Assembly (NCBI GenBank): GCA_014377485.1
Contig: JACMPM010000016.1
Location: forward strand, 1,396 to 65,395
Source: Bacteriovorax sp.
Lineage (GTDB): Bacteria; Bdellovibrionota; Bacteriovoracia; Bacteriovoracales; Bacteriovoracaceae
Direction: 5' to 3'
Length of the DNA: 64,000 bases
Shown: positions 1 through 14,139 of the stretch, in pieces
Layout of the letters: every line of letters starts with the position of its first letter
Numbering within the stretch: the stretch's first letter is position 1
Translations under genes and position numbers: made by a program
The notes under the pieces: model-generated
Databases searched by the model: none
What the model was told of the DNA's origin: nothing
What the model saw: the letters and a program-made list of their open reading frames with translations, nothing else

Positions 1-1655
1 AAAATATGGAAGAATTACTTACAAAATTTGTCAAAACTATTTCCGATACCATAACAGAAGGTTTAAGTTTCGACGAAGTTCAAAAAATTAAAAACCAATA
101 TCTCTCTTCTAAAATTTATGAAATGGAGTCAATTGAATCTTTTTCTTTTTCTCTCGGGCATAGTTACGCTCAAAATGGCGATATTAAATGTGAAGAAGAA
201 TTTATTGAGCGAATTAAAGCGACGGCTCCTGGCGTAGTTAACAAGGCCTTGAAAAATGTTTTTTGTAAAAACTTTCACCTTAGTATGCAAATACCAGAAG
301 AAGCTGATCTGGCGAAAACGAAGAAAGATCTTTTAAAGTTTCAGCTAAATCTTGAATTATTAAAGAAAAAGCTAATTCTTAGTAAATCAAAAGCAAAATT
401 TAAAATAGAAAAATCTAAATATGACCAACAAGTACAATTGGTACGATTAAAGCCAGGTATTTCATTAATTTACCGTCAGAATACAATGACCCCAACTTTT
501 GTTCTTCAAGCCTATTTGCGCGGCGGAATTACAGAAGAGACGACAAAAACAAACGGCATCTACCACTTGTTAAGCTCAATGCTTACCAAAGGTCACGATG
601 GAATTGGTTACGAAAAAATAAAATTAGCTCTTGAGGAAACTTCATCTAGTATCGGTGGGTTTTCCGGAAAAAATGCTTATGGTCTTTTAATGCATGGATT
701 GACCGAAAATCTACAAGATCTTTTCCCTCATTTTTCAGGTTCATTAATCAATCCTGATATGCCGTTAAAATATCTTAAACATGAAAAACAATTGACCTTC
801 AGGGCCCTTACTAATCAAAAAGAAGATCCGGTCAAACATTGTTTCAAACAAGCTCAGCAATTATTTTTCGGCAAGCATCCGTACGCTTTGAATCCAATTG
901 GAACTAAAGAAACCATAACTGCGCTTAATCAAAAATCACTTCTTCTGTTGCATTCGAAAAATTTAAAAAAGAAGGAAGTTATTTTCACTTATTGTGGCGA
1001 TAGCTCTCTTGAAGATGTCCTGGAAATGTTCAACCCATTATTAGAAAACTTAGCTCCACGCAAGACTGAAAAACTTAGCTTTAAGCCGTATAAATCAATA
1101 GTAGGCGTTGAAAAATTTATTTCATTTAACCGAGAACAAACTCAAATTTTTTATGGGATTCCATGTGGTCGAATCGGGTCTCCGGAAAATCTTTATTTAA
1201 AAATGCTAACAACTCATTTGTCAGGTCAATCCTCTGAATTGTTTGTTGAGGTAAGAGACAGACAAGGACTTTGTTATTCAGCACAACCTGTCCATTTTGC
1301 AGCTCTTGAAGGTGGATATTTTGGGATTTATATGGCATCCGGGCACGATAAAGTCATTGCTGCCACCATTGCGATTAAAGAGCTTATTGGCAGAATTAGA
1401 GATAATGGCCTGTTAGAAGTAGATTATAATAGAATTAAATTAATGATCGAAGGCCAAAATTTAATCAATGTTCAGACTAATGAAGATTTCGCTTCTATTT
1501 ATTCTGTTCCGGTATTGCAATCCCAAGGACTTGATTACTACTACGAAGGCAATAACGAAATCCAAAATTTAACTTATGCTAATTTCCAAAAAAACATTAA
1601 GAAAATTCTCTCTCAAAAATGGAATACTATTATTGTTGGAAGACCGCTGAAATAA
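1..1655 (+). CDS. M16 (pitrilysin/insulinase) family peptidase, C-terminal portion; gene probably continues off the 5' edge
   Basis: The frame is open to the window edge. An internal M16-repeat-like segment, GIYHLLSSMLTKG, sits where active M16 domains carry HxxEH, so this is a degenerate non-catalytic half. 549 aa are visible. Confidence 0.5.
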   Translation, partial: NMEELLTKFVKTISDTITEGLSFDEVQKIKNQYLSSKIYEMESIESFSFSLGHSYAQNGDIKCEEEFIERIKATAPGVVNKALKNVFCKNFHLSMQIPEEADLAKTKKDLLKFQLNLELLKKKLILSKSKAKFKIEKSKYDQQVQLVRLKPGISLIYRQNTMTPTFVLQAYLRGGITEETTKTNGIYHLLSSMLTKGHDGIGYEKIKLALEETSSSIGGFSGKNAYGLLMHGLTENLQDLFPHFSGSLINPDMPLKYLKHEKQLTFRALTNQKEDPVKHCFKQAQQLFFGKHPYALNPIGTKETITALNQKSLLLLHSKNLKKKEVIFTYCGDSSLEDVLEMFNPLLENLAPRKTEKLSFKPYKSIVGVEKFISFNREQTQIFYGIPCGRIGSPENLYLKMLTTHLSGQSSELFVEVRDRQGLCYSAQPVHFAALEGGYFGIYMASGHDKVIAATIAIKELIGRIRDNGLLEVDYNRIKLMIEGQNLINVQTNEDFASIYSVPVLQSQGLDYYYEGNNEIQNLTYANFQKNIKKILSQKWNTIIVGRPLK

Positions 1656-1723
1656 TTTTTGTAAGTCTAATATAGTAAGTTTGAAGTTGCGATTTCATTG
1701 TTTGTCGGTAATAATTTTTACCT

Positions 1724-3112
1724 ATGTACTCCTTCGATCTAAACGCACCTTTAAAGCTCAGAATCGATGAAATTCAGAAAAATGAGTTTGTTTTCTTAAA
1801 ACTTTCTACGGAACTCAATTCCACTGATGAAAGTATTAATATTATTTTTGATTCGCTTACAAAAAAGACAGATCGCCTGTTTTTTTCCATTGATAACTTA
1901 ATTGATTTTCCTCATATCAAAGAATATGAAGCTAAATTTCCTATTGCCTGGTTTGGCGTTCCTGTAATGGTGGGTTCTAATCAACAAGGTTTTAATAGCG
2001 ATCACACCGTTTATTCGAATATCGATTCACTAAGTTTAAATCTGTTTGATGCTCAAAAAAACCAATTTACCGATCAACAGAAAGTTATTCCCGAATTCAA
2101 TTTGTCAGGAAACCATTATCAGCTTGGACCTACCATCGTTGAATTTTTTGATCGTTATAAACTTCCCTTCGCTTTCTTAAAGATTGAAGGTTTACCTGAT
2201 ATGCAGCAGGTACAATATTTTCGTGAAACTTTTGAATCACTAAGAATTAAAGGATTTAAAGGAAAAATTTATTTTTCTTTTAACAATGCTCACTTAGATG
2301 AATGGAATATAAAAACATACAATACCTTTTCTGGAATCCAAACTGTACATCTTGATCTCTCAAATAAATGTACGCACTCGTGTGTCTTTTGTGGCCTTTG
2401 GGGGCCAGAATTTATTGATGAGATGAAATCGAGGACTGACGATGGAGTCTTAAGACCCGATGTTGTAAATTTTATGAACCGGCAAATGCCTTATCAACGG
2501 GCCATTGAAATATTGGAAGCACTTCCTGATACAGTTAAGGCTGTTCAATTTGGAGGTGCAGGCGACCCCCTAACTCACCCTCAGTGGTTGAATATTCTTG
2601 CTCGCTGGAGAGCTCGCGGATTTAAAGTAGAAGTTCTCACCAATTTTGAGTATCCGAGTAAAGAAGAACTAGATATTCTTCACGAGCTGTCGCAAGGTAG
2701 AAGAAATTTTGATTTTATGATTAATGTGTCGGCTGCAACGCCTGAAGTTTACAAAATCATACGCCCAAGACAGTCACAGGCCACTTTCGAAAAAGTTATA
2801 GCCAATATTCGTTATTCAAGAAATTTAAGAATACGCGATGGATATGGTCTTACCTTTACAATGATTCATATAATTAATACCCATAATTTTAGAGAAGCGG
2901 TAAAGATGGTTGAACTCGCTCATGAATTGGGAACCGGAGTTTGGTTAAAACCCCTGGAAGTGCATTCGGACATTCACAAAAAGTATACTATCCCAAAAGA
3001 AGACTATCCCCTATTTCAAAAAATGATGAAACAGGCACTACTAAGGGCAGATGAATTAAAAGTTAAAATCGTTTTAAGAGAGTTTCTTGAAGCTATCGCG
3101 GGAGACATATAA
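1724..3112 (+). CDS. radical SAM protein with an ~200 aa N-terminal domain of unknown function and no fused auxiliary-cluster domain
   Basis: CX3CX2C motif CTHSCVFC at nt 2369-2392 and a Gly-rich SAM motif GGAGDPL. The ORF ends 1 nt before the next ATG. Confidence 0.8.
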   Translation: MYSFDLNAPLKLRIDEIQKNEFVFLKLSTELNSTDESINIIFDSLTKKTDRLFFSIDNLIDFPHIKEYEAKFPIAWFGVPVMVGSNQQGFNSDHTVYSNIDSLSLNLFDAQKNQFTDQQKVIPEFNLSGNHYQLGPTIVEFFDRYKLPFAFLKIEGLPDMQQVQYFRETFESLRIKGFKGKIYFSFNNAHLDEWNIKTYNTFSGIQTVHLDLSNKCTHSCVFCGLWGPEFIDEMKSRTDDGVLRPDVVNFMNRQMPYQRAIEILEALPDTVKAVQFGGAGDPLTHPQWLNILARWRARGFKVEVLTNFEYPSKEELDILHELSQGRRNFDFMINVSAATPEVYKIIRPRQSQATFEKVIANIRYSRNLRIRDGYGLTFTMIHIINTHNFREAVKMVELAHELGTGVWLKPLEVHSDIHKKYTIPKEDYPLFQKMMKQALLRADELKVKIVLREFLEAIAGDI

Positions 3113-3113
3113 A

Positions 3114-3491
3114 ATGAGTGATTCATTATCTATTCGCCCTGAAACTAATCTAGAAAAATCACAAATCGATTTTGGTGTTTCCAACGGTCAAGTTCCCGGT
3201 GATCTATATCAGACTATTCCTTGCACCATTGGCTTTACATATATTAGGTTCGAAGTTGACGGCTCAGTTAAGCCTTGTTGTGTGGCTCCAATGCGCTTTG
3301 GAAATATTAACGAATCAAAATTCGATGATATCTGGCATTCCCATGAATATTATTCATGGAGAGGAAAATTTCTTCGAATTCAAAAAACTCGCTTTCATTT
3401 GAAAGAAACGGAGTTTGGTTTTTGCCAAATATGCCCACACATTCCACTTAATCTTGAATCATCACGACTTCTAGCGATTAAGAGAGATTAA
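3114..3491 (+). CDS. stand-alone SPASM/twitch-like Cys-rich domain protein
   Basis: ATG at 3114 lies 1 nt after the upstream stop; the track start at 3087 overlaps the upstream gene. The Cys pattern PCTIGF..EVDGSVKPCCVAP..FGNINE..DIWHS..FCQICPH is typical of SPASM auxiliary Fe-S domains. Confidence 0.6.
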   Translation: MSDSLSIRPETNLEKSQIDFGVSNGQVPGDLYQTIPCTIGFTYIRFEVDGSVKPCCVAPMRFGNINESKFDDIWHSHEYYSWRGKFLRIQKTRFHLKETEFGFCQICPHIPLNLESSRLLAIKRD

Positions 3492-3494
3492 TTT

Positions 3495-4910
3495 ATGGAA
3501 AAAGAAGATTTAAAAAAGCAATATTCAGATACGAAAGAAAAACTAGATACCGTCTCGCCTTCTTTCTGTTTGGCAAAGTGGTTCCAGGTGACTTTGCATT
3601 TGCAGAATGGGCACAATCATTCATGCCATCATCCCAATACTCATCAAACAAATTTGGATGAACTAGCAAAGAATCCTGCGGCCCTTCATAATACTATTTT
3701 CAAGAAAAAAATACGTTCATTAATGCTCGAAGGTGTGAGACCTAAAGAATGTGAATACTGCTGGAAAATAGAAGACACGGCTGGATCACATTTTAGTGAC
3801 CGCCATATTAAAAGTAATGATGATTGGGCTAAACCTTTTTTTGAAGAAGCAATTCAAGCCGGCGCCGAAAAAGATATTAATCCAAAATACTTGGAAGTCA
3901 GTTTCAGCAATTCTTGTAATTTTAAATGTGCTTACTGCCTTCCTCAAATCTCTAGCAGCTGGATGAAAGAATTAAAACAACATGGTGAATATCAAACTCA
4001 TTCAAAACATCATGCTTTTTCATATCTCGAAAAAACTGGAAAAATGCCAATTGCGGATACTTCCCTTAATCCATACGTAAAATCCTTTTGGGAATGGTGG
4101 CCTACACTCTATAAAGATCTAAAAACTTTTCGCATTACCGGTGGTGAACCATTTATGGTTCCAGACACCTATAAAGTGTTGGAGTATGTTGCAGAAAATC
4201 CTAACCCACAATTAAGCCTGGCAATAAACACTAATCTCGGAGTGGAACAACACTTAATTGATAAAGCAGTCGTTAGCATTAAAAAAATTCTTGATGCTAA
4301 ACATGTTAAAGATATCACAATCTTTACAAGCCTAGATACCTGGGGAATCCAGGCTGAGTATATACGCTATGGCCTAAATATGGATTTATTTCTAAGGAAT
4401 TTAACTTATGTCTTAGAAAAATTACCAGAGGTTAAGCTTACCTTTATGTGTACCTATAACTTACTTTCAATTTCTTCATTTAGAGCATTCCTGGAATTTA
4501 TCCTGAACCTTAAAAATAAATACAAGGTTGCTAACACTGAATATGACAGCCGCATTGTTTTAGATATTTCCTATTTAAAAGATCCTCAGTTTATGTGCGC
4601 CAATCTTGCAGACAAATCATTATTAGACCAGATGAAGTCTGATCTCCTTTTTCTGAGTGAAAATTCACCCAACAGGAAAAGTGACAATAAAATAGGATTC
4701 ACCGATTTTGAATTAAATAAAATGCAAAGATTATTTAGTTGGGCGAGTGTTGCTATAAATCCAGTGTTTAAAAATTTACAACTCAAAGACAATTATATTT
4801 TTTTCTCAGAATACGATCGTAGAAGAGGCACTAATTTTTTGCAGACATATCCTGAATATACAGACCTTTGGAATGCTGGAAAACACTTAGCTCAAAGTAA
4901 CGGAGTTTAA
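3495..4910 (+). CDS. radical SAM protein with an N-terminal Cys-rich (twitch-like) segment
   Basis: CX3CX2C motif CNFKCAYC at nt 3915-3938. The N-terminus reads FCLAKW..LQNGHNHSCHH..KECEYC. There is a 3 nt gap to the upstream gene. Confidence 0.75.
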   Translation: MEKEDLKKQYSDTKEKLDTVSPSFCLAKWFQVTLHLQNGHNHSCHHPNTHQTNLDELAKNPAALHNTIFKKKIRSLMLEGVRPKECEYCWKIEDTAGSHFSDRHIKSNDDWAKPFFEEAIQAGAEKDINPKYLEVSFSNSCNFKCAYCLPQISSSWMKELKQHGEYQTHSKHHAFSYLEKTGKMPIADTSLNPYVKSFWEWWPTLYKDLKTFRITGGEPFMVPDTYKVLEYVAENPNPQLSLAINTNLGVEQHLIDKAVVSIKKILDAKHVKDITIFTSLDTWGIQAEYIRYGLNMDLFLRNLTYVLEKLPEVKLTFMCTYNLLSISSFRAFLEFILNLKNKYKVANTEYDSRIVLDISYLKDPQFMCANLADKSLLDQMKSDLLFLSENSPNRKSDNKIGFTDFELNKMQRLFSWASVAINPVFKNLQLKDNYIFFSEYDRRRGTNFLQTYPEYTDLWNAGKHLAQSNGV

Positions 4911-4911: not shown

Positions 4912-7236
4912 ATGAATTTGTTAATAATCCGTTCAGCTGAGTTATCAACCTGGGGTAGTTGCAAGGTAATTTCTCCAAACTTGCAAGCAACATATAAACT
5001 ACTAAGTGATAGGTTCACACTTACATGGTTTGATATTCCGGTTAAATATGTTCAGCAAGAAATAGATTCTTCAAGTTCGCACATCATTGATCTATCTTTA
5101 AAAATAAAAAATGAAAAACCAGATCAGATCATATTCATTGATCATCTTCCAAATCCAGCTGAAATTTTAAATAATCTGTCCTTAGTAATGGAACTAGATC
5201 AACTTCCACCTCTCGTATTTCATATATATGGCGACTTCACTTATTTTTCTAAAGACTGGCTGGAACTAACACCTAAATTAATTAATCATCCTGTTAAGTT
5301 TGTAACGGCTTCTAGTTCACAAAAAAATCTTTTAAGTTATTTTTGCGAAGATTCAAGAGTAATCGAACAATTTTGTTTTCCTGTTAATTCAGAAGAGTAT
5401 TACTTTGATTCAGAAGCCCGCATAAAACTAAGAAAAGAAATGCAAATTAGTGATCAAGACATCGTCATCCTTTACTCTGGCAGAATAAGTCTTCAAAAAA
5501 ATGTAGATGTTTTATTGAAAGAATATTTAAAGTTGATAAAAAACTCTACCCAGTGCATTCACTTGTGGATAGTTGGTGCATTTGACGACCTAGGTGCTCC
5601 ATTTATGGGAGTAGAAACCAACGAAGGCTATTTATATTCTAAATTTGAAAGCATTCTCGCAGGCCATCCCAAAGATTTTATAAATAAGATAAAATTTTGG
5701 GGAATTCAAAATAAAGAAAAATTGAGGGAAATTAAATCCGCGGCTGATCAATTTATAAGCTTAAGTCTTTATCATGATGAAGACTATGGCATGTCTCCTG
5801 CGGAGGCTTTGGCCTGCGGTCTTCCAACCCTGCTGACTGATTGGGGAGGATATTCATCGTTTGCTTCAAAGAATTGGCGCTGCCAACTAATGCCTGTTTC
5901 TATCACAGAATTTGGTCTACAAATTAAAACTTCTGCAATTAAAGAATTTCTAAATACATATCTAGAATGTTACATAAACGATACTGATCGCAAAAGATGG
6001 TCTAATGAATTTTTAAGTCAATTTTCAATAAAAGAAAACGGCTTAAAATTAGAATCTATTCTCTCTACCAGCTTTAGGGTTTTTAAAGGGTTTAACTGGG
6101 CCCTTGCTCCTTTTTCTCAACAATATGGAAAATCGTCAGAACACAAAACACTTAATGCCAATACTGGTCCGTCGGATAAAAATTTTTATTTCCAAGTCTA
6201 TAAAAATTATATTTCCCAAGACGATGCTCCGGATAAAGAGAGTACTTATGACACAATTCAATGGATGTATGACTACATTAAGAATTCTGAGGTTGAGCTT
6301 GTAACGGAAGCAAGAAAAAGCAATCGATCTTATCACCACTACCTTAAACCATTTTCAAAAAATTATTATGGCCCAACGAATCCTGCTCTTTTATTTGATG
6401 GAAAAATTACTACTAAATTAATTGATAAGAAAATTTGGACTTTAAGAGACGGCCTTGTTCCTGTATGCCTTTTCTTCAAAGAACATTTACCTAATAAATT
6501 TGCCGGAGAAATAGCAATTCATAAAAGCTTATGGTTTTTGGTTCCAGATCACTGGAGGGAAAAAGTATTATTTTATGAAATAAAAAATGAAGTTCAATTT
6601 AGCAAATCACAATTGCCTCAGAAAATCTTCATCACTGGTATGCTGAATTCAACTTTAGCCGATCCAGAAGAATTTGACCAAGACTTGGTCAGTTTAAAAG
6701 AAATACTAGGTAAAGAAAATATTGAAAAAATGGAAATCCTTGCTTTTCTTCCAAACAAAAAAGCTAATCTTTGGGGTAGCTGGGAAGAGGAAAATTTATT
6801 GAAATTTTCTCATTCTTTGTTCCGAAACATTAAAAATGAAGTTCAATTTTCTGAATGGCAAAACATTCAATCTGAGACAAATTTTAGTAATTCTCTCTAC
6901 TATGAAATTAATCGTGGCTATTTTATTAAAGATACTTTCACTAAACACTTCGCATTATCAAGAGGTGCCGGTTTACTGAAATCAAGTGTCGTTGAGGTTC
7001 CATGTGAATTGATAAAAACACATAAACTTTCACTCTATCATTCGATTAATATTTATCGTCCTAACTTCACAAAAATTCCCGCTTATATAAATCCTTTTGA
7101 TCATGAATATTTTGAGTATTTTAAAAAATTATTTGAATCAAATACAAAGAACCCAAAGGCTTCAACTTCTTGGGACTCTTGGTTTGCATCATATTTAAAA
7201 AAGTATTACAAACTCTATCCCCCTACTATTCTGTGA
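4912..7236 (+). CDS. large GT-B (GT4/GT1-like) glycosyltransferase with an ~380 aa C-terminal extension of unknown function
   Basis: Motifs GRISLQKNV and EDYGMSPAEALACGLPTLLTDWGGY (EX7E-type motif). There is a 1 nt gap to the upstream gene. Confidence 0.75.
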   Translation: MNLLIIRSAELSTWGSCKVISPNLQATYKLLSDRFTLTWFDIPVKYVQQEIDSSSSHIIDLSLKIKNEKPDQIIFIDHLPNPAEILNNLSLVMELDQLPPLVFHIYGDFTYFSKDWLELTPKLINHPVKFVTASSSQKNLLSYFCEDSRVIEQFCFPVNSEEYYFDSEARIKLRKEMQISDQDIVILYSGRISLQKNVDVLLKEYLKLIKNSTQCIHLWIVGAFDDLGAPFMGVETNEGYLYSKFESILAGHPKDFINKIKFWGIQNKEKLREIKSAADQFISLSLYHDEDYGMSPAEALACGLPTLLTDWGGYSSFASKNWRCQLMPVSITEFGLQIKTSAIKEFLNTYLECYINDTDRKRWSNEFLSQFSIKENGLKLESILSTSFRVFKGFNWALAPFSQQYGKSSEHKTLNANTGPSDKNFYFQVYKNYISQDDAPDKESTYDTIQWMYDYIKNSEVELVTEARKSNRSYHHYLKPFSKNYYGPTNPALLFDGKITTKLIDKKIWTLRDGLVPVCLFFKEHLPNKFAGEIAIHKSLWFLVPDHWREKVLFYEIKNEVQFSKSQLPQKIFITGMLNSTLADPEEFDQDLVSLKEILGKENIEKMEILAFLPNKKANLWGSWEEENLLKFSHSLFRNIKNEVQFSEWQNIQSETNFSNSLYYEINRGYFIKDTFTKHFALSRGAGLLKSSVVEVPCELIKTHKLSLYHSINIYRPNFTKIPAYINPFDHEYFEYFKKLFESNTKNPKASTSWDSWFASYLKKYYKLYPPTIL

Positions 7237-8234: not shown

Positions 8235-9020
8235 TTATCGCTTTTCAGACTTATCTTCACTGTATTTGAAGCCTCGATATTGTTCGTATGCCTCCTTGAT
8301 ATCGCCATCATAAAGGATTTTTCCCTCACTAATCAAAATTGCACGGTTACAAACACTTTGAATTTGGGTTTCATAATGACTTACAAAAATAACGGCTCTC
8401 GATTTCTCTATAAGCTTACTAATCCTCTCCGAAAGTTTTTCTCGGAAAAATTCATCTGCTCCATCGAAAACTTCATCAAGAATAAGGATGTCAGCAGGCT
8501 TTGAGGACAATAATGAGAGAGTTAATCTTACCAGCATGCCTTTACTATAAGTTTTTATTGGCACATCAATAAACTCTTTCAAATCACTGAATTCTAAACT
8601 TTCATTGATTATGCTTTCCAATTCATTTCGATAATCAGGATAATATATTTCAGCAAGAATCCTGGCATTTTCTCTTCCACTCAATTCTGGATAAAGACCA
8701 ATCGAAGACTCAAACAAAGCGCGAATCTTGCCATGTCTTAAAATTTTTCCGTCTTGAGGTTTATAAAATCCTGAAATGCATCTACAAAGAGTCGATTTAC
8801 CTGCTCCATTAACACCAATTAATCCAACTCGATCACCTTCGTAAATTTTTAGATTAATATTATTCAATGCCAAAAAATAACTTCGATCGTATTTTTTGGA
8901 AAATGGCCCTAACATCGTACTAATAAAAACATCTCTTACACTGGAAGCGGTTATTAACCTTAAAGGAAAAGCTAATTTTAATTCTCGAATATCTAGTAAA
9001 ACTTTTTTTGTGTTAAGCAT
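8235..9020 (-). CDS. ABC transporter ATP-binding protein, Wzt/TagH (polysaccharide or teichoic-acid export) type
   Basis: Walker A GVNGAGKST, signature-like YSKGMLVRL, Walker B ILILDE. It overlaps the upstream permease gene by 8 nt. Confidence 0.85.
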   Translation of the reverse strand: MLNTKKVLLDIRELKLAFPLRLITASSVRDVFISTMLGPFSKKYDRSYFLALNNINLKIYEGDRVGLIGVNGAGKSTLCRCISGFYKPQDGKILRHGKIRALFESSIGLYPELSGRENARILAEIYYPDYRNELESIINESLEFSDLKEFIDVPIKTYSKGMLVRLTLSLLSSKPADILILDEVFDGADEFFREKLSERISKLIEKSRAVIFVSHYETQIQSVCNRAILISEGKILYDGDIKEAYEQYRGFKYSEDKSEKR

Positions 9021-9771
9021 ATAAAATTAAATATTTTTTCATTTTCTTCCAAGTAATAAACGATGCTCCAGCTAACAATCCAGAGAAACCAAATGAGAGT
9101 AAAACACTTGTAAAAAACTCACGATTAGGGCTTTGCATTGTAAGAATCTGAAATGGCTTAATGATATAATAGATGGGATTAAAATCAGCCACAAATCTAT
9201 ATTGTGTTGGAATAAAATGAACTGGATAAAAAATTGGAGTTAAATAAAACAAAAGAGAAAATAAAAAGCTAATGACAAATTTTAAATCTCTCAGAACTAC
9301 ATTTATTGATGCAAAAATTAAACACATTGATCCAACTCCCACTGCTAGAGAAATAATAGGAAGAGGAAGGAAAAAGAATATATTGAGCTTTCCTGGATTT
9401 TTAAAAAGGAAAAGGACAATTAATATAAGAAACGAGCATAAAAAATTAACAAAATTATCCAAAATTTGAGTATAAACCAAGACAAGAGGAGAAACCGGAA
9501 GATTGCGTACAAAATGACTATTCATAACAAATATACTTGTACACATTTCAATGGACTGAATAATGAATAACCATGGTAAAAGTCCTGATAGTAGGAAGGT
9601 GCTATAATTTAAATACTGAATTTTAAAAATAATTGTAAATGCATAGGCCTGCACAGCGAAGGTCAATATTGGATTTATAATAACCCAAAGAAAACCATAA
9701 AATGTATTTCTATACCTAGACTTAAGATTTGCCAGGGTGAGTACATAAATAATTCGCAAATTATTGGGCAT
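9013..9771 (-). CDS. ABC-2 type transporter permease (Wzm/TagG-like)
   Basis: N-terminal LANLKSRYRNTFYGFLWVIINP motif, about six hydrophobic spans, and pairing with the ATPase gene. Confidence 0.8.
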   Translation of the reverse strand: MPNNLRIIYVLTLANLKSRYRNTFYGFLWVIINPILTFAVQAYAFTIIFKIQYLNYSTFLLSGLLPWLFIIQSIEMCTSIFVMNSHFVRNLPVSPLVLVYTQILDNFVNFLCSFLILIVLFLFKNPGKLNIFFFLPLPIISLAVGVGSMCLIFASINVVLRDLKFVISFLFSLLFYLTPIFYPVHFIPTQYRFVADFNPIYYIIKPFQILTMQSPNREFFTSVLLSFGFSGLLAGASFITWKKMKKYLILYA

Positions 9772-9835: not shown

Positions 9836-10678
9836 CTAAGGATTAAAAATATTTTTGTAAATGAGAAAATAGAATAATTTCATATCTTCGGGATGCTTGA
9901 AAAAATCCTTATTTCTTAAATCTTCAAGGAATGGACAAACTAAATCAGTATCATGACATTGCAGTTTTTTGATTTTTTGAATTGAATGATTAGGAGAAAG
10001 CAGATGCTCTGAGAGAATCTTATATTTTGAATTATCTAAGTCTGGCTGGTGTAAGCAAGCACCTTTTGATAAAGCAAGATGAACCAAATAATTATCAAGA
10101 CAAGACCATTGCGATCCTGCTTCAACTATTAAGCAATTTTTAAAAGATGCTTTTTTCTCTAAATCTTTAAGAGATAATGCTTCCGGCAGCAGTCCTAAAT
10201 ATTTCTGAATAAGTTGAAAGTAACTTAGAAGATATTTTTGATCTAGAGAATTATTTGTATCAACATTATAATTATAATGTGCCGATATCTTTAATTTCGA
10301 ATACTTTCGTAAATAATTCTCATGAAACCATTTCAGAAAATCATTCAAGAGCTCTAGTGGTGTTTCGAGAAGATTAATATTAAACAATAATATAAAGGTT
10401 GAATTATCATCAAACTGAACTTCGAAATTATTTTTTATTCTGTAATATTCAGACTGATCTTTAAATAAATCAAATCTAGAAAGTAGAATATGTGGAGTTT
10501 GGGCAATTGAGGAGTCAACAAGCTTATTAAACAATGTGAAAAATAGTCCATCTCGATTTAGCAGCATCGATGAATAATTAAAATATTCAGTCAAATAAAT
10601 ATTCGACGAATCATATCTTTGAGTTAAATCGTTTTCAAGCGACTGTAAATATAATTTTGTCTTCACAATTTTTACCAA
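9836..10678 (-). CDS. hypothetical protein (280 aa)
   Basis: Long ORF that overlaps the upstream glycosyltransferase gene by 7 nt. I recognise no motif. Confidence 0.5.
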   Translation of the reverse strand: MVKIVKTKLYLQSLENDLTQRYDSSNIYLTEYFNYSSMLLNRDGLFFTLFNKLVDSSIAQTPHILLSRFDLFKDQSEYYRIKNNFEVQFDDNSTFILLFNINLLETPLELLNDFLKWFHENYLRKYSKLKISAHYNYNVDTNNSLDQKYLLSYFQLIQKYLGLLPEALSLKDLEKKASFKNCLIVEAGSQWSCLDNYLVHLALSKGACLHQPDLDNSKYKILSEHLLSPNHSIQKIKKLQCHDTDLVCPFLEDLRNKDFFKHPEDMKLFYFLIYKNIFNP

Positions 10679-11910
10679 AAAGATTTATAATATTTTTTAA
10701 AATTTTCTAACGGCTTTTTTCCAGACTCACTTTTAAGCTCAAGTGCAAAAGTTAAAAGTACTTTATCAAAATGGGAAAAAATATTTTTCTTATAAAACAA
10801 ATCTGAAAGAGCACAAAATAATTTATCTTGCCCAATATGTTTTTTAGTTTTTTGAATTAATTTAGCCCTATCCTCTGGCGTTCTCTTGGCAACTTGCTCT
10901 AGGAATATGGCCAATTTCTCTGTCTCGAGATAAAGTTTTTCTTTCTCGAGAACTACATCCATACCAAAACAATCATCAGGAAATTCTTGGCAAAAATCCT
11001 TATATCCGCCCCAATTGCTTACAATGCAGGGAGTTCCTTCGGCCAGCGATTCAATTATTGTATTTCCATAATCTTCATCCAGAAAAGTACTGAAGGAAAT
11101 AACTGCATCGTTGCTTTGGTATAGGAAATTTAGCTCTGCTTCATTTTGATGGGGCAAAATCTTTACCTCAAAAAAACCAGAAAGTTTATTTATTTCTTTC
11201 ACGTATTCATGGAATTGTTCGCCAAGAATTTTCTTTGAATTTATGGTCGTAGGGTTGAAATCATCAAAGTATACGACTAGAGTTAAACAAATCTTTTTTT
11301 CCGTATTTTTAGAAATATCATTTAACGAACTAATAAGACATGTAACATTTTTTTGTTCATGATAGCGGCCTGCATACATCACGTTTAGGACTTCACCTGG
11401 CACTTTAATATTAAGATGCTTTTCACCATCGTCTTTAGAGTTAATAGGAAATGGCAATACGTATATATTTTCTTTTGAAATAAAATTAGCTAAAACCTCA
11501 AAATAACATTTAGATGCAACGACAAATTGAATATTTTTCTTTGTTAACAAATGATTAAGTGAAAACCAATTTTCTCCGTATCTAATAAAATTGCCAAATA
11601 TATGAAAAACAAATTGAGTTTGAACTTCTGTTTTTATACTTAGTAGAGCACTTAAAAAAAGGTGATTTGTAATACCAGGATGAATGATAATGACATGGTC
11701 GGGAGTGTTGTCTTTAAATTGAACAATACGATTTTTAAAATCCGAATCTACACTTTTTTCACTTTCAAGATCCATCAAATCAATTTCTAAAACTTCAAAA
11801 GACTCTTCAGGCAGAGAGAGATATAGCTTAGATAAATTTTGAGATATTCGATTAACACTCTGGATGTCTTCAGTTTTGTGATTTAAGATCCAAACATTTT
11901 TTTTAATCAT
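10672..11910 (-). CDS. GT-B (GT4-like) glycosyltransferase
   Basis: Motifs GRYHEQKNV and EDYGNTIIESLAEGTPCIVSNWGGY. It shares the WGGY block with the 774-aa glycosyltransferase. Confidence 0.8.
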   Translation of the reverse strand: MIKKNVWILNHKTEDIQSVNRISQNLSKLYLSLPEESFEVLEIDLMDLESEKSVDSDFKNRIVQFKDNTPDHVIIIHPGITNHLFLSALLSIKTEVQTQFVFHIFGNFIRYGENWFSLNHLLTKKNIQFVVASKCYFEVLANFISKENIYVLPFPINSKDDGEKHLNIKVPGEVLNVMYAGRYHEQKNVTCLISSLNDISKNTEKKICLTLVVYFDDFNPTTINSKKILGEQFHEYVKEINKLSGFFEVKILPHQNEAELNFLYQSNDAVISFSTFLDEDYGNTIIESLAEGTPCIVSNWGGYKDFCQEFPDDCFGMDVVLEKEKLYLETEKLAIFLEQVAKRTPEDRAKLIQKTKKHIGQDKLFCALSDLFYKKNIFSHFDKVLLTFALELKSESGKKPLENFKKYYKSFW

Positions 11911-11918: not shown

Positions 11919-12827
11919 CTATTTCACAATATAGGGACTAATAAGTCCCAAACTGAACATTTCAAAGGGATGAATTTCGCCATAATATTCATTCGATCTC
12001 CAACATTGATTTGTATTATCAAAATCAAACCACGGAGACACTCCACAGATCATATGAATCCTGTCTATGGAGTCTATTTTTTTACAAAAAGGTCTATGAT
12101 TTTTTCCAGAATCATAAACATATGCATACCCCTGATCCATCGAGAATTCGTCTATTTCAAGTTCTTCACCTTCTGAATCCTTTATTATTTGGATAGAGTA
12201 ATTAGATGAAGTTTGAATCGGAATGTTCACTCTTAAGTTAAGAAATATTAGCTCATCATTATGCCAGCAAAAATTGAATTTAGTTGTTTCCTCTCTTCCT
12301 GCCTTGATTGTTGAAATTCTTGATCGAACCAATGTACGTTCAAACGAATCAAGAAATTTTTTAACATGCAAATGATTCGAAATTGGAGTTCTTTCAACAA
12401 ATGAATAAGTGTCATGATAAGAGTTGCGATAAGAATTTTTTCCATTCAAATCGCCTGTATAAAATGAAGCTGAATTCCCTTTCAATGAACTAGATCCAAG
12501 TGTAGCCAAATGTGGGTCAAGCGATATTTTATCATGTGCTGATGGATTCCAAGTTAAAGAGGATGAAACATAGGGTCCGTTTTCAGATAAAGCAACATTT
12601 CCGTATTTAAACTGATGGAGGCCATATTTAGTAATGCCATCAAGGATTGATTCTATAAGTAATTGAAAATCAAAATTAATTTTTTCCTTTCTAATAATAT
12701 TGGAATTGAAATGTGAAAATGTTTCGATTTTTTTCTTGATATCTGTAAACTTAAAAATATATTCGTGTATGGCCATATTGCCGGGGATATCTGACAGAGA
12801 AATGACCCAACGATCTTTGCTGGACAC
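11919..12827 (-). CDS. putative Fe(II)/2-oxoglutarate oxygenase, aspartyl/asparaginyl beta-hydroxylase-like cupin
   Basis: Pattern CWHNDE..LRVNIPIQT..G.AYVYDS.KNHRP..DRIHMI resembles the AspH/LpxO family (H.D ... H ... R.hL). GTG start in a TAGTG overlap with the PqqD-like gene. Confidence 0.5.
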   Translation of the reverse strand: MSSKDRWVISLSDIPGNMAIHEYIFKFTDIKKKIETFSHFNSNIIRKEKINFDFQLLIESILDGITKYGLHQFKYGNVALSENGPYVSSSLTWNPSAHDKISLDPHLATLGSSSLKGNSASFYTGDLNGKNSYRNSYHDTYSFVERTPISNHLHVKKFLDSFERTLVRSRISTIKAGREETTKFNFCWHNDELIFLNLRVNIPIQTSSNYSIQIIKDSEGEELEIDEFSMDQGYAYVYDSGKNHRPFCKKIDSIDRIHMICGVSPWFDFDNTNQCWRSNEYYGEIHPFEMFSLGLISPYIVK

Positions 12828-13135
12828 TAACTCTCCTTCAAAGTCTGCGGCGAATTGTGAAATTCAATTAGGGAATTATTTTGCAAGTCAGTTAAAAGAA
12901 CATCAATCTCTTCGTTAAAATAATTTGACTGCAACTTCATTTCAACTTCAAATTCTTTGATAACTTGTTCTAATGATTTTATTCCATTAAATCTATGACA
13001 TAAATTTGCTGCGAAACCGTCTAATTTATATCCACGATTATTTTTGCTATTAAAGATGTAGAAATGAGATTTGTTTTTATTATAGTCTTGTATGGGATCG
13101 GCCAAAAGAATAGGAAAAAGTTTTAACTTATCCAT
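12827..13135 (-). CDS. PqqD-family peptide chaperone (RiPP recognition element-like)
   Basis: 102 aa. The segment YIFNSKNNRGYKLDGFAANLCHRFNGIKSLEQVIKEF...EIDVLLTDLQNNSLIEF fits the PqqD pattern (LN..a..iw..ldG..t..ei ... fl..L...gli). Confidence 0.7.
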   Translation of the reverse strand: MDKLKLFPILLADPIQDYNKNKSHFYIFNSKNNRGYKLDGFAANLCHRFNGIKSLEQVIKEFEVEMKLQSNYFNEEIDVLLTDLQNNSLIEFHNSPQTLKES

Positions 13136-13138: not shown

Positions 13139-13309
13139 CTAGTAACCACCACCATAAGATGAATTCGAACCAGTAGTACCTACTAATAAAGTAACTATTT
13201 GTGCAGCAGTCAAAGGGGCTAGAGAGCCAAACTGGAGCTTTTCAGTTTTAGAATCAGCGTTAGCAGTTGCGCTGTCTTCATTATTGTTTTTTGGATCTTC
13301 ATTATTCAT
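13139..13309 (-). CDS. 56-aa candidate precursor peptide MNNEDPKNNNEDSATANADSKTEKLQFGSLAPLTAAQIVTLLVGTTGSNSSYGGGY
   Basis: Translated by hand: ATG at 13309-13307, TAG at 13141-13139. It is absent from the ORF track because it is under 60 aa. The stop lies 3 nt from the PqqD-like ATG. Confidence 0.6.
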   Translation of the reverse strand: MNNEDPKNNNEDSATANADSKTEKLQFGSLAPLTAAQIVTLLVGTTGSNSSYGGGY

Positions 13310-13395
13310 TCATTTACCATAATTCAATACCTATCATTTAATATATTGCAATATTAATTTTAAATCTACAAAAATCTTATATTGACGGACAAACC

Positions 13396-13411
13396 AGCAA
13401 AATTGCTACCA
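13396..13411 (-). promoter_or_regulatory. candidate sigma-54 (-24/-12) promoter TGGTAGCAATTTTGCT
   Basis: GG and GC elements have the canonical 12-nt register (consensus TGGCACG-N4-TTGCW). It lies about 88 nt upstream of the peptide ATG, in the only sizeable intergenic gap of the operon. Confidence 0.3.
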
Positions 13412-13470
13412 CGGAGTATTTCTGCCTCGTGAGTTGTATTTAATCAATTTGCCTCTTAAAGTTGCTAATA

Positions 13471-14139
13471 TTAAGTAAATATTGTTCTATTTTTCATCGG
13501 GTGAACTTCATCCGTAGGGCCCCAGTCAGTATCGGGATGAAAGGCAATGACGTTCATAGATTCGCCATAAGTATTAAACTTGTGTGCAACAAGCGCTGGT
13601 ATAAAAAAACAATCGCCAATATTGAGCTTTTGGCTCCTATCTTCACTCACGCTTTCTCCATGACCTGAGACTACTATTCCAAACCTAAAGCTAGGATGAT
13701 AATGAGAAGTCTGATTTGTATTTTTAGGAAAATGAAGCAAATTTAGGCAAGGCTCCCCTAAGCGACTAGGAGAAATTAACAAAGTATCGCTGCAGCCATT
13801 TATATAATTTAATCGTCCAGTGGGCTCTATAGGACCGCCTACCATATTCAAGCAACTGTAGAAATTAATTTCGATTATCACTGCTTTACTATTTTGATCT
13901 AACTTTATTTTTACTGGTGCTTTTTGAGAAAAGTACATTCCCGGTAAAACATCCGAAGAATAGAATTCATTGCTAATTTTGGCATTTCCTTGTTGAAGAA
14001 AGAAAAATACAGAGCCGTTTTTATATGAGTATTCTTCCTCCCTCCCCATCGTTTGCTTTAGTGCTAAATTAAAACTTCCGATGTCTAGGACAACAGTTTT
14101 AGAAAATTTTTGATTGGTAATTAAAACAACATTCTGCAT
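13471..14139 (-). CDS. cupin domain protein
   Basis: Cupin motifs SHYHPSFRFGIVVSGHG and IGDCFFIPALVAHKFN. Confidence 0.65.
   Translation of the reverse strand: MQNVVLITNQKFSKTVVLDIGSFNLALKQTMGREEEYSYKNGSVFFFLQQGNAKISNEFYSSDVLPGMYFSQKAPVKIKLDQNSKAVIIEINFYSCLNMVGGPIEPTGRLNYINGCSDTLLISPSRLGEPCLNLLHFPKNTNQTSHYHPSFRFGIVVSGHGESVSEDRSQKLNIGDCFFIPALVAHKFNTYGESMNVIAFHPDTDWGPTDEVHPMKNRTIFT

What the first reader, a model, noticed from the sequence alone, without database searches (positions are those of the whole stretch)
1..14139. Convergent two-operon locus: short peptide + PqqD-like chaperone + radical SAM/SPASM ORFs + two GT-B glycosyltransferases + AspH-like oxygenase + ABC-2 exporter; candidate new glycosylated RiPP or peptide-derived cofactor pathway
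Seen: the minus-strand operon 13309->8235 is packed with overlaps or 1-8 nt gaps, apart from one 64-nt gap before the exporter genes. Its order is: 56-aa ORF; 3 nt gap; PqqD-like gene; TAGTG overlap; AspH-like oxygenase; GT-B glycosyltransferase; 280-aa unknown; ABC-2 permease plus Wzt/TagH-like ATPase. It ends 3 nt from an equally compact plus-strand operon 1724->8231. That operon holds an rSAM (CTHSCVFC), a stand-alone SPASM-like ORF, a second rSAM (CNFKCAYC) with an N-terminal Cys-rich segment, a 774-aa GT-B glycosyltransferase and a 333-aa unknown. An M16 peptidase gene lies immediately upstream and a cupin gene flanks the other side. Established: a PqqD-like recognition element plus rSAM/SPASM enzymes beside a short ORF is the hallmark of rSAM RiPP pathways. 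Examples are PQQ (PqqA/D/E with M16 PqqF), mycofactocin (MftA/B/C, glycosyltransferase MftF, substrate ending Gly-Val-Tyr) and subtilosin (AlbA with M16-like AlbE/F). Inference: the locus makes a radical-SAM-modified, hydroxylated and glycosylated peptide or peptide-derived small molecule. The combination of split rSAM/SPASM, two large GT-B enzymes, an AspH-like oxygenase, a polysaccharide-type exporter and a GGGY C-terminus matches no RiPP class I can name.
Basis: partly seen in the sequence, partly recalled or inferred. Interest (0 to 1): 0.85.

Follow-up and report, generated by a model that had tools for sequence, protein, structure and literature searches.

The report
Undescribed Tyr-terminated RiPP-like gene cluster
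A predatory bacterium (Bacteriovorax) carries a compact gene cluster built around a 56-residue peptide that always ends in tyrosine, together with a peptide-binding chaperone, an iron oxygenase, sugar-adding enzymes, radical SAM enzymes and an exporter; the peptide family and several of its enzymes have never been described, so it probably makes a new kind of modified, likely sugar-decorated, peptide.

Summary

The 56-aa ORF belongs to a family of 77 precursor-like peptides, found only in Bacteriovorax/Bacteriovoracaceae where a source is named. All share an invariant leader motif (FG..P(L/M)T..Q) and an invariant C-terminal Tyr. Their cores fall into three types.

In all 17 sequenced loci the peptide lies within two genes of a PqqD-like RRE or of a 302-aa oxygenase. 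That oxygenase has an Fe(II)/2OG dioxygenase fold and no Pfam family. A GT4-type glycosyltransferase paired with a new "partner" domain, and at least one radical SAM enzyme, are also always present.

- The oxygenase is not AspH-like by HMM.
- The window's own PqqD match is sub-threshold; it is significant only at family level.
- The rSAM/SPASM split is lineage-specific.
- The M16 peptidase and the cupin are probably neighbours, not cluster members.
- The twitch rSAM plus the 332-aa protein form a module that elsewhere sits in nucleotide-sugar contexts.
- Only the final Tyr is conserved, not GGGY.

The product's chemistry remains inferred. No paper or curated family describes this system. I class it as a new variant of a known kind (an RRE-dependent RiPP-like cluster).

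The parts
13139..13309 (-). Precursor peptide, 56 aa: MNNEDPKNNNEDSATANADSKTEKLQFGSLAPLTAAQIVTLLVGTTGSNSSYGGGY. It has a variable acidic/basic N-terminus, the conserved leader motif FGSLAPLTAAQIVTLLV, and the core GTTGSNSSYGGGY.
   Evidence: The family has 77 clusters. F, G, P, Q and the C-terminal Y are invariant in 77/77. NCBI gene MBC7538039.1.
12827..13135 (-). Stand-alone PqqD-like RiPP recognition element (RRE), 102 aa
   Evidence: The window copy is sub-threshold (PF05402 E 0.017; TIGR03859 E 0.019). The family profile matches PqqD 3G2B at E 1.6e-5 over its full length and TfuB1 at E 0.085. 11/11 members hit PF05402. It is directly adjacent to the peptide in 13/17 loci.
11919..12827 (-). 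Fe(II)/2-oxoglutarate dioxygenase-fold protein, 302 aa, with no Pfam or NCBIfam family. Invariant H189-x-D191, H244, R256. Its start overlaps the RRE stop codon.
   Evidence: pLDDT 92.1; Foldseek: 7v4o, 4p7x, 1e5r, AsqJ, FtmOx1. Present in 15 of 17 peptide loci; the two without it (L012, L036) are not shown to lack it.
10672..11910 (-). GT-B (Glycos_transf_1, GT4-type) glycosyltransferase, 412 aa; paralog of the N-terminal half of the 774-aa GT
   Evidence: (E 1e-27 against GT774 residues 16-414)
9836..10678 (-). GT 'partner' protein, 280 aa; homologous to the C-terminal domain of the 774-aa GT; uncharacterised family
   Evidence: hhalign 97.3%, E 2e-11; no PDB relative
9013..9771 (-). ABC-2 permease, Wzm/KpsM-like, about 7 TM segments
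   Evidence: best match galactan exporter Wzm/RfbD, E 1.4e-17, below cutoff
8235..9020 (-). ABC ATPase, Wzt/TagH-like, 261 aa, with no C-terminal carbohydrate-binding domain
   Evidence: Wzt/RfbE E 3.8e-52, 177 bits against a cutoff of 400
1724..3112 (+). Radical SAM enzyme, 462 aa. CX3CX2C at residues 216-223 and no other Cys. The ~200-aa N-terminal extension has unknown function.
   Evidence: Co-occurs with the peptide in 7 loci.
3114..3491 (+). Stand-alone SPASM/twitch-like Fe-S domain protein, 125 aa, 5 Cys. Fused to the preceding rSAM in L001 and L003.
   Evidence: (PF13186 E 8.4e-13)
3495..4910 (+). NF033640 radical SAM enzyme with an N-terminal twitch domain, 471 aa
   Evidence: 328.6 bits; MBC7538030.1
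4912..7236 (+). Fusion of a GT4-type glycosyltransferase (residues ~1-415) with the partner domain (~416-774). Encoded as two genes (~445 and ~335 aa) in other clades.
7233..8231 (+). Unknown protein, 332 aa from GTG 7233 (the longest ORF starts at 7170). Conserved partner of NF033640 rSAMs, also in sugar contexts. Invariant S-D-x-D motif.
   Evidence: (L041 homolog E 2e-9 against the window, 3e-15 against L014)
22917..23948 (+). Candidate member: membrane-anchored NMT1/periplasmic-binding-protein-like protein, 343 aa ('fam5'). It lies beside the peptide genes in 10 other loci but is displaced by about 9 kb here.
6..1655 (+). Flanking M16 peptidase, cut by the window start. Membership is doubtful; it is probably a syntenic housekeeping neighbour.
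13471..14139 (-). Flanking Cupin_2 protein, 222 aa. Membership is doubtful; it is present only here and in L001.

Best explanation
The locus is a biosynthetic gene cluster for a ribosomally made, post-translationally modified and exported peptide. It belongs to a previously undescribed RiPP-like family confined to Bacteriovoracaceae.

Shown by sequence and comparative evidence:
- The 56-aa ORF is a member of a 77-member precursor family with an invariant leader motif and an invariant C-terminal Tyr.
- It travels with a PqqD-like RRE, a new Fe/2OG dioxygenase-fold family, one to three 'GT4 glycosyltransferase + partner domain' modules, and at least one radical SAM enzyme.

Inferred mechanism:
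1. The RRE binds the leader motif FGxLxPLTAxQ(I/V)(I/V)xL and presents the C-terminal core GTTGSNSSYGGGY.
2. The translationally coupled oxygenase hydroxylates a core residue. The invariant terminal Tyr is the most likely target.
3. The two paralogous GT+partner modules (412+280 aa, and the fused 774 aa) add sugars to Ser, Thr, Tyr or the new hydroxyl.
4. The NF033640 twitch rSAM and its 332-aa partner tailor a sugar.
5. The 462-aa rSAM and its separate SPASM protein modify the peptide in a way I cannot name.
6. The Wzm/Wzt-like ABC-2 pump exports the product across the inner membrane.

No leader protease is identified.
For: - **Precursor family:** 77 clusters. F(-5), G(-4), P(0), Q(+5) and the last residue Tyr are invariant in 77/77. 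There are three core types. This pattern of a variable N-terminus, a conserved recognition motif and type-specific cores is that of a RiPP precursor.
- **Adjacency:** the peptide lies next to the RRE in 13/17 loci and within two genes of the RRE or the oxygenase in 17/17, despite extensive rearrangement.
- **RRE:** the family profile matches PqqD 3G2B at E 1.6e-5, and PF05402 is hit by 11/11 members.
- **Oxygenase:** AF2 pLDDT 92. Foldseek gives 58 hits at E<=0.001, and every listed one is an Fe/2OG dioxygenase. The HxD...H...R pattern is invariant.
- **Glycosyltransferases:** GTs occur in 17/17 peptide loci. GT412+unk280 is a split paralog of GT774, so both strands of the window carry the same module type. 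This links the two operons.
- **Twitch rSAM:** its >=62%-identity clade is Bacteriovorax wherever a source names it, and many members sit on contigs whose lengths match those of oxygenase or peptide hits. In L014 it lies 3 genes from the peptide.
- **Relatives with Cys cores:** these carry rSAM/SPASM enzymes whose best NCBIfam resemblance is to the peptide maturases PapB, QhpD, CcpM and SCIFF.
- **Exporter:** it is glycan-type.
- **Distant oxygenase homologs:** these sit beside a C39-peptidase ABC exporter or beside peptide-binding and peptidase genes.
Against: - No modification has been observed; every chemical step is inferred.
- The window's own RRE is below the Pfam and NCBIfam cutoffs.
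- No conserved leader peptidase is found in this clade.
- The twitch rSAM, its partner protein, the GT4 enzymes and the Wzm/Wzt-like pump are all typical of glycan pathways. Outside Bacteriovoracaceae, the twitch rSAM module occurs without any peptide.
- The window's 462-aa rSAM shows no specific similarity to known peptide maturases.
- The rSAM1, twitch rSAM and ABC-2 genes are present in only 6-7 of the 17 sampled peptide loci. Other loci use a different rSAM family.
- The TwiRS fold search was inconclusive on substrate.
Confidence: 0.7

Rival explanations
1. Peptide-derived small molecule or cofactor, in the manner of mycofactocin, PQQ or pearlin-type scaffold pathways. Only the invariant C-terminal Tyr, perhaps with its neighbour, is built upon. 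It is hydroxylated, cross-linked or decarboxylated, and glycosylated, and then cut off. The rest of the peptide is a disposable scaffold.
For: - The terminal Tyr is the only invariant core residue in 77/77 precursors, while the rest of the core varies.
- An RRE with rSAM/SPASM and a glycosyltransferase parallels MftB/MftC/MftF (established knowledge).
- Two precursors end in CVY, close to MftA's GVY.
- An M16 peptidase lies next to the rSAM genes in the window, L003 and L004.
Against: - Cores are strongly conserved within each type (SNSSYGGY; PSSPxGAxACY; repeated AC/GPC units). This argues that the whole core matters.
- There are no significant MftC, PqqE or PqqD equivalog hits: TIGR03962 10.8 bits against 265, TIGR02109 16 against 381, TIGR03859 14.8 against 46.
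- The GTs are PF00534-type, not GT2.
- A dedicated exporter points to a secreted product.
- No cofactor-using oxidoreductases are co-located.
- The family is limited to a single bacterial family.
- M16 looks like a syntenic neighbour.
Confidence: 0.14
2. Two unrelated systems that happen to be adjacent. In this reading, a minimal peptide system (peptide, RRE, oxygenase) sits beside a cell-surface glycan or glycolipid pathway, made up of the GT4 enzymes, the twitch rSAM with its partner, rSAM1/SPASM and the Wzm/Wzt-like exporter. That pathway never touches the peptide.
For: - NF033640 rSAM and unk353 homologs occur with NDP-sugar epimerases/dehydratases, a DegT aminotransferase and GTs, and without a peptide.
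- The exporter's best matches are the galactan, teichoic-acid and capsule exporters.
- The cluster lies in a conserved chromosomal region rich in envelope genes: polytopic membrane proteins, sulfatase-family proteins and a Dlt-like set.
Against: - GT+partner modules are found in all 17 peptide loci, in three different gene orders, and are often the gene next to the peptide.
- The partner domain is rare: 255 representatives in 1.84 billion.
- The GT412/unk280 pair sits inside the peptide operon with overlapping or 8-nt junctions.
- No initiating phosphoglycosyl transferase, polymerase or flippase typical of glycan pathways was seen among the genes scanned.
Confidence: 0.12
3. The short ORF is not a substrate at all. 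It would be a small regulatory or structural protein, or a chance ORF, and the enzymes act on something else.
For: There is no direct evidence for this. The peptide has no Pfam or NCBIfam hit, and the promoter/terminator scan is uninformative.
Against: 77 homologs have invariant motifs, and the best profile E-value is 2e-19. The ORF is constantly adjacent to an RRE, whose known role is binding precursor peptides. It shows the core-type diversity typical of RiPP precursors.
Confidence: 0.03

Closest known systems
Mycofactocin pathway (MftA/B/C/D/E/F)
   Same: A short precursor ending in Tyr. A stand-alone PqqD-like RRE. An rSAM enzyme with a SPASM-type auxiliary domain. A glycosyltransferase that decorates the product. 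Two of the 77 relatives even end in CVY.
   Different: - No equivalog-level match to MftC or MftB.
- The GTs are GT4/PF00534-type with a novel partner domain, not GT2 like MftF.
- An Fe/2OG oxygenase is the signature enzyme here.
- The cores are long and type-specific.
- A dedicated ABC-2 exporter is present.
- No MftD/MftE homologs were noticed.
- The system is restricted to Bacteriovoracaceae.
Ranthipeptides/sactipeptides (PapB, SCIFF, CcpM type rSAM/SPASM maturases)
   Same: The Cys-rich and Cys-Tyr relatives (types 2 and 3) carry one or two rSAM/SPASM enzymes whose best NCBIfam resemblance is to PapB, QhpD, CcpM and SCIFF maturases. They also use an RRE.
   Different: - Scores are far below the family cutoffs: 55-89 bits against 340 or more.
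- The window's core has no Cys, and its rSAMs belong to other families.
- The oxygenase and GT+partner modules are not features of these classes.
Glycosylated RiPPs: glycocins (SunS-type), cacaoidin (Tyr O-glycoside, PMC8068269), a glycosylated lasso peptide (PMC11912497), siderophore-microcins
   Same: A ribosomal peptide decorated by dedicated glycosyltransferases. Cacaoidin provides a precedent for glycosylation on Tyr. Siderophore-microcins have a Gly/Ser-rich C-terminal tail that carries the sugar-linked moiety.
   Different: - The GT families differ: GT2 in glycocins (my own knowledge), against GT4-type plus a novel partner domain here.
- None of these systems combines an RRE, a 2OG oxygenase, two rSAMs and a Wzm/Wzt-type exporter.
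- Glycosylation of this peptide is not demonstrated.
ABC-transporter-dependent glycan export (Wzm/Wzt, TagGH, KpsMT)
   Same: The permease and ATPase are most similar to these exporters. The GT4 enzymes and a sugar-context rSAM lie alongside.
   Different: - Scores are below the equivalog cutoffs.
- The ATPase lacks the Wzt carbohydrate-binding domain.
- No initiating transferase was seen.
- The pump is embedded in a peptide operon and is present only in type-1 clusters.
GtfA/GtfB O-GlcNAc transferase pair of serine-rich-repeat adhesins
   Same: This is an analogy only, from my own knowledge: a GT4-type catalytic subunit works with a non-catalytic partner that engages a Ser/Thr-rich polypeptide substrate.
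   Different: The partner here has no detectable similarity to any solved structure or Pfam family. The substrate is a 56-aa peptide with a leader. No experimental link exists.

Membership tests
RRE-dependent RiPP biosynthetic gene cluster (general definition) | A short precursor gene with a conserved leader/recognition sequence and a variable core | tested here: met
   77-member family. FG..P(L/M)T..Q is invariant or nearly so. Three core types.
RRE-dependent RiPP biosynthetic gene cluster (general definition) | A PqqD-like RiPP recognition element encoded with the precursor | tested here: met
   Family profile against 3G2B, E 1.6e-5. PF05402 hit by 11/11 members, best E 1.8e-7. The window copy alone gives only E 0.017. 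Adjacent to the peptide in 13/17 loci.
RRE-dependent RiPP biosynthetic gene cluster (general definition) | Modifying enzymes that co-occur with the precursor across genomes | tested here: met
   Oxygenase in 15/17, GT in 17/17, and at least one rSAM family in all but L013 among the sampled peptide loci.
RRE-dependent RiPP biosynthetic gene cluster (general definition) | A leader peptidase | tested here: inconclusive
   M16 is adjacent but behaves as a syntenic neighbour. No HExxH motif occurs in any cluster protein. Only relatives have an rSAM with a weak MA-peptidase-like C-terminus.
RRE-dependent RiPP biosynthetic gene cluster (general definition) | A post-translationally modified mature peptide | not testable with these tools
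   Requires expression and mass spectrometry.
Mycofactocin system | MftC rSAM maturase (TIGR03962) | tested here: not met
   Only the twitch rSAM gives a trace hit: E 0.19, 10.8 bits against a cutoff of 265.
Mycofactocin system | MftA precursor ending Gly-Val-Tyr | tested here: not met
   The window ends GGGY. Only 2/77 relatives end in CVY.
PQQ biosynthesis | PqqD and PqqE equivalogs (TIGR03859, TIGR02109) | tested here: not met
   14.8 bits against 46, and 16.1 bits against 381.
Ranthipeptide/sactipeptide | Cys residues in the core, cross-linked by a PapB/SCIFF-type rSAM-SPASM maturase | tested here: not met
   The window peptide has no Cys. The window's rSAMs give no PapB hit. Relatives' family-4 rSAMs reach 55-89 bits against a cutoff of 340.
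NF033640 twitch domain-containing radical SAM protein | Score above the NCBIfam cutoff over the full model length | tested here: met
   328.6 bits against 170; model positions 1-397 of 398. NCBI gives it the same name.
Aspartyl/asparaginyl beta-hydroxylase (AspH, PF05118) | A match to PF05118 | tested here: not met
   No Pfam hit at E<=0.01 for the 302-aa protein. True PF05118 proteins exist as separate genes in L011, L013, L014 and L029.
Fe(II)/2-oxoglutarate dioxygenase superfamily | A double-stranded beta-helix fold with an HxD/E...H iron triad and a basic 2OG-binding residue | tested here: met
   AF2 pLDDT 92.1. Foldseek matches 2OG oxygenases with E down to 2e-9. H189, D191, H244 and R256 are invariant in 29 sequences. 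Cofactor use itself was not tested.
Wzm/Wzt glycan ABC exporter | Equivalog-level match | tested here: not met
   177 bits against 400 (ATPase) and 64 against 380 (permease). The general ABC-2 family is matched.
Glycocin | SunS-type GT2 S/O-glycosyltransferase | tested here: not met
   Both GTs match PF00534/PF13692 (GT-B, GT4-type).

The most novel reading that the evidence does not exclude
A ribosomal peptide acts as the primer or carrier of a glycan. The invariant C-terminal Tyr, after oxygenase action or directly, would be the acceptor on which the GT4+partner modules build an oligosaccharide. The twitch rSAM tailors that sugar chain. The glycopeptide is then handled by a Wzm/Wzt-type pump that normally moves lipid-linked glycans, and in sister clusters it is further esterified outside the cytoplasm by a Dlt-like MBOAT system. 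This would be a glycogenin-like priming logic grafted onto RiPP machinery, with a peptide replacing the polyprenol carrier.
Probability: 0.15. Interest if true: 0.9.

Novelty: new variant of a known kind. Interest (0 to 1): 0.68.

Why it matters
If the inference holds, this defines a new RiPP-like class with three unstudied components:
- a Tyr-terminated precursor family
- an Fe/2OG oxygenase family with no Pfam model that is genetically coupled to an RRE
- a rare partner domain that accompanies GT4 glycosyltransferases

It would also give the large, function-less NF033640 twitch-rSAM family (more than 5000 clusters) a tractable context in which to find its substrate.

The producers are predatory Bacteriovoracaceae, whose secondary metabolism is almost unexplored. 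A secreted glycopeptide there could act in predation, prey recognition or self-protection.

The three core types, served by swapped rSAM sets, form a natural experiment for working out which enzyme acts on which residue.

Tried and rejected
- **Pfam/NCBIfam on the window's own 102-aa and 302-aa proteins:** this gave no usable call. Family profiles and a structure model were needed.
- **An early wrong conclusion:** I first concluded that rSAMs were absent from several peptide loci. This was wrong. All-against-all clustering showed a different rSAM family there.
- **Metagenome scan with the RRE profile:** only 2 extra loci.
- **Distant oxygenase homologs (29-35% identity; Ferrovibrio, Bradyrhizobium and others):** these have no peptide or RRE. 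Short-ORF hunting in the high-GC loci gave only spurious ORFs.
- **Profile searches of the partner domain and unk353 against PDB sequences and Pfam:** nothing significant.
- **TwiRS structure and Foldseek:** a confident model but only weak, mixed matches (SuiB, QueE, BlsE, AprD4, viperins), so the substrate class is not resolved.
- **Structure prediction of unk280, unk353 and the RRE with family alignments:** not possible, because locus-derived sequences are not accepted by the predictor.
- **Cupin against the type-2 Asp_Arg_Hydrox protein:** unrelated.
- **Sulfatase-family neighbours as substrates of an anSME-like rSAM:** rejected, because they have no C/S-x-P-x-R motif.
- **Spliceotide (XYG) and triceptide cyclophane ideas for SSYGGGY:** considered from memory. 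There are no supporting HMM hits, and Gly lacks the C-beta needed for a cyclophane, so neither was adopted.
- **Promoter/terminator scan:** uninformative in this AT-rich DNA.
- **Six literature searches:** no description of the system.

Full report
**Source.** The window's peptide and twitch rSAM are identical to NCBI proteins MBC7538039.1 and MBC7538030.1. Both come from a 72,311-bp contig of a Bacteriovorax sp. MAG. G+C is 29-38%. No tRNA or Rfam RNA lies in the window.

**1. Observation**

Minus strand:
- peptide 13139-13309
- 3-nt gap
- 102-aa gene
- TAGTG overlap
- 302-aa gene
- 8-nt gap
- 412-aa GT
- 7-nt overlap
- 280-aa gene
- 64-nt gap
- ABC-2 permease
- 8-nt overlap
- ATPase ending at 8235, 3 nt from the stop codon of the plus-strand operon

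Plus strand:
- rSAM 1724-3112
- a SPASM ORF whose in-frame ATG is at 3114, 1 nt after the rSAM stop
- twitch rSAM 3495-4910
- 774-aa GT 4912-7236
- an unknown protein that most likely starts at GTG 7233 (a GTGA overlap; 332 aa)

HMMs confirm Radical_SAM, SPASM (E 8e-13), NF033640 (328.6 bits against a cutoff of 170), Glycos_transf_1 twice, ABC2_membrane, ABC_tran, Peptidase_M16_C and Cupin_2.

PqqD reaches only E 0.017-0.019, and PF05118 (AspH) gives no hit.

**2. The short ORF is a real precursor family**

Homologs of the 302-aa protein brought in 34 genomic loci. Upstream of it in the Bacteriovoracaceae loci lies a short ORF with the same architecture as the window's.

A profile of 12 such peptides found 77 protein clusters. 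The best E-value was 2e-19, and every named source is Bacteriovorax.

Anchoring on the motif gives these counts:

| Position | Residue | Count |
|---|---|---|
| −5 | F | 77/77 |
| −4 | G | 77/77 |
| 0 | P | 77/77 |
| +1 | L | 76/77 |
| +2 | T | 76/77 |
| +5 | Q | 77/77 |
| last | Tyr | 77/77 |

The residue before the terminal Tyr is Cys in 48, Gly in 27 and Val in 2. Position +13, just after the hydrophobic stretch, is Ser or Thr in 66/77.

The cores fall into three types:

| Type | Core | Count |
|---|---|---|
| 1 (the window's) | GTTxSNSSYGG(G)Y, no Cys | 27 |
| 2 | PSSPxGAxACY | 29 |
| 3 | Cys-rich, e.g. xSDxALGACACACGGPCY | 21 |

So the Gly-rich GGGY tail is not the family's hallmark. The terminal Tyr is.

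**3. The companions**

*The 102-aa protein.* An 11-member family profile matches the PqqD crystal structure 3G2B over its full length (E 1.6e-5). It also weakly matches the lasso-peptide RRE TfuB1. All 11 members hit PF05402, with a best E of 1.8e-7. It is a PqqD-like RRE.

*The 302-aa protein.* It belongs to a small family of 69 clusters with no Pfam domain. H189-x-D191, H244 and R256 are invariant. The AF2 model has pLDDT 92.1. All of the best Foldseek matches are Fe/2OG dioxygenases: the nucleoside-antibiotic hydroxylase 7v4o, proline 4- and 3-hydroxylases, AsqJ, FtmOx1 and PHD2. It has a 2OG oxygenase fold and is not specifically AspH-like. True PF05118 proteins occur as additional genes in type-2 loci.

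*The glycosyltransferases.* GT412 aligns with the first ~414 residues of GT774 (E 1e-27). unk280 is homologous to the C-terminal domain of GT774: pairwise E 3e-5, reciprocal hits in six loci, and hhalign 97.3% with E 2e-11. In other clades GT774 is two genes of ~445 and ~335 aa. The window therefore has two paralogous 'GT4 + partner' modules, one on each strand.

The partner domain is rare. There are 255 representatives at E<=1e-3 among 1.84 billion proteins, mostly stand-alone ~330-aa proteins with a few ~770-aa fusions. It has no Pfam model (0 of 34 members) and no PDB sequence relative.

*The exporter.* It resembles Wzt/RfbE, TagH, Wzm and KpsM, all below the equivalog cutoffs.

**4. Co-occurrence**

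I clustered all ORFs of 22 sequence sources, 17 of which carry a peptide gene. The counts below cover all 22 sources; a few lack a detectable peptide or were not part of the clustering.

| Gene family | Sources with it |
|---|---|
| oxygenase | 19 |
| GT | 17 |
| peptide | 17 |
| RRE | 15 |
| 'family-4' rSAM/SPASM | 12 |
| NMT1/PBP-like 'fam5' | 11 |
| rSAM1/SPASM | 7 |
| twitch rSAM | 7 |
| ABC-2 permease (with its paired ATPase) | 6 |
| unk353 | 6 |

The peptide is next to the RRE in 13/17 loci. It is within two genes of the RRE or the oxygenase in 17/17.

The family-4 rSAMs are found in the loci with Cys-containing cores. They come as ~450-aa and ~550-577-aa paralogs. They most resemble the PapB, QhpD, CcpM and SCIFF peptide maturases but score far below the cutoffs. 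The long form has a weak MA-clan peptidase-like C-terminus.

Type-1 clusters instead use rSAM1(+SPASM) and the twitch rSAM. rSAM1 and SPASM are one ORF in L001 and L003, and two ORFs in the window, L004 and L009. The split is therefore a recent fission, not a defining trait. rSAM1 has only the CX3CX2C cysteines, and the SPASM ORF has five Cys.

**5. What probably does not belong**

*M16 peptidase.* It is 71-86% identical across loci in which cluster genes drop to 27-50%. Its position and orientation vary.

Much of the window out to 61 kb has homologs in the flanks of the other loci, some at 84-100% identity. The cluster therefore sits in a conserved chromosomal neighbourhood. I rate M16's involvement at roughly one in three.

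*Cupin.* It is found only in the window and L001, and is unrelated to the type-2 Asp_Arg_Hydrox protein.

**6. The twitch rSAM module**

NF033640 is a very large family, with more than 5110 clusters at E<=1e-10.

Members at 45-50% identity lie among NDP-sugar epimerases/dehydratases, a DegT aminotransferase, GT7-like transferases and methyltransferases. No peptide or RRE is nearby.

In L041 the neighbouring 338-aa protein is a homolog of unk353 (E 2e-9 against the window, 3e-15 against L014). TwiRS+unk353 is thus a portable module with a sugar-pathway affinity.

The TwiRS model is confident (pLDDT 92.6). However, it has only weak, mixed structural neighbours: SuiB, QueE, BlsE, AprD4, viperins and MoaA.

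Within Bacteriovoracaceae the module is tied to the peptide cluster. This holds in six type-1 loci plus L014.

**7. Mechanism**

*Shown:* gene content, conservation and folds.

*Inferred:*
- The RRE binds the invariant leader motif.
- The oxygenase, whose start codon overlaps the RRE stop, hydroxylates the core. The invariant Tyr is the best candidate because the oxygenase and a GT are the only enzyme families common to all core types.
- The GT+partner modules glycosylate the peptide. The partner domain may engage the peptide, by analogy with GtfA/GtfB (my own knowledge).
- TwiRS and unk353 tailor the sugar.
- rSAM1/SPASM perform an unknown peptide modification.
- The ABC-2 pump exports the product.

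My estimated probabilities are about 0.8 that this is a RiPP-like cluster with this peptide as substrate, about 0.55 that the peptide itself is glycosylated, and about 0.35 that the Tyr is the oxygenase's target.

Rivals are a Tyr-derived small molecule or cofactor (0.14), two unrelated adjacent systems (0.12), and a non-substrate ORF (0.03).

**8. Comparison and novelty**

No equivalog-level match exists to the mycofactocin, PQQ, ranthipeptide/sactipeptide or glycocin enzymes.

Six full-text searches found no description of the system. Cacaoidin (PMC8068269) and a glycosylated lasso peptide (PMC11912497) are the nearest precedents for glycosylated RiPPs.

The logic of precursor, RRE and tailoring enzymes is known. 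What is new is the precursor family, the RRE-coupled oxygenase family, the GT partner domain, and the combination with a glycan-type exporter. I class it as a new variant of a known kind, with interest 0.68.

Noticed in passing
window 34656-38698: A Dlt-like set: a 73-aa carrier-like ORF, an AMP-binding ligase (34867-36225), an MBOAT (36208-37683) and a 366-aa protein. The same kind of set lies directly beside the Cys-rich (type-3) peptide clusters L037-L039: ligase, a ~90-aa protein with a GxLDS(L/I) carrier motif, MBOAT and a ~330-aa protein. It also lies near the cluster in L003, L035 and L015. It may esterify the exported product, or it may simply be a syntenic neighbour.
   Followed up: partly
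window 23981-30502: A further block of tailoring-type genes: a B12-binding radical SAM enzyme, a VTT-domain protein, a JmjC/Cupin_8 protein, a GT28-like glycosyltransferase, two methyltransferases and a YdjC-like protein. Homologs appear only in the flank of L009.
   Followed up: partly
window 14392-22744: Two paralogous ~767-aa proteins with 9-11 predicted TM segments (one has a weak TMEM260/PMT-like hit), and two sulfatase-family proteins. The latter lack the C/S-x-P-x-R formylglycine motif and each has a single N-terminal anchor. A sulfatase-family pair also lies next to the oxygenase in L039.
   Followed up: partly
P0137 and P0146 (relatives of window 13139-13309): Two of the 77 precursors end in ...AACVY. 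This resembles the Gly-Val-Tyr end of mycofactocin MftA. Their contigs are too short to show the accompanying enzymes.
   Followed up: no
L024:9791-13122; L022:6708-11927; L029:9989-11571: Distant homologs of the 302-aa oxygenase (29-35% identity) also sit in peptide-related contexts. In Azospirillum the homolog is beside a C39-peptidase ABC exporter. In Ferrovibrio it is between an SBP_bac_5 oligopeptide-binding protein and an M81/MlrC peptidase. In a Rickettsiales MAG it is followed by an Asp_Arg_Hydrox protein. No precursor ORF could be recognised there.
   Followed up: partly
L040:2951-12175: Two NF033640 twitch-rSAM paralogs sit inside a cluster with three GT7-like/Laminin_G_3 proteins, a methyltransferase and an NDP-sugar epimerase. 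This is a peptide-free context that could help reveal the substrate of this large rSAM family.
   Followed up: no
window 13139-13180 (core) and type-1 relatives: All type-1 cores carry N-(S/T)-(S/T) immediately before YGG(G)Y. This is formally an N-x-S/T sequon. Types 2 and 3 lack it.
   Followed up: no
L015 (contig CANFVK010000002.1, 608,278 bp): The oxygenase gene has no peptide, RRE or GT within 10 kb. Yet a precursor (P0091) and a twitch rSAM (P0163) are reported from a contig of the same length. The cluster can apparently be dispersed within a genome.
   Followed up: no
window 47106-61493: Genes here are 79-100% identical to genes flanking the oxygenase in L004, L006, L010, L013 and L015. 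This shows that the peptide cluster occupies a conserved chromosomal neighbourhood with variable content, which may be an integration or recombination hotspot.
   Followed up: partly
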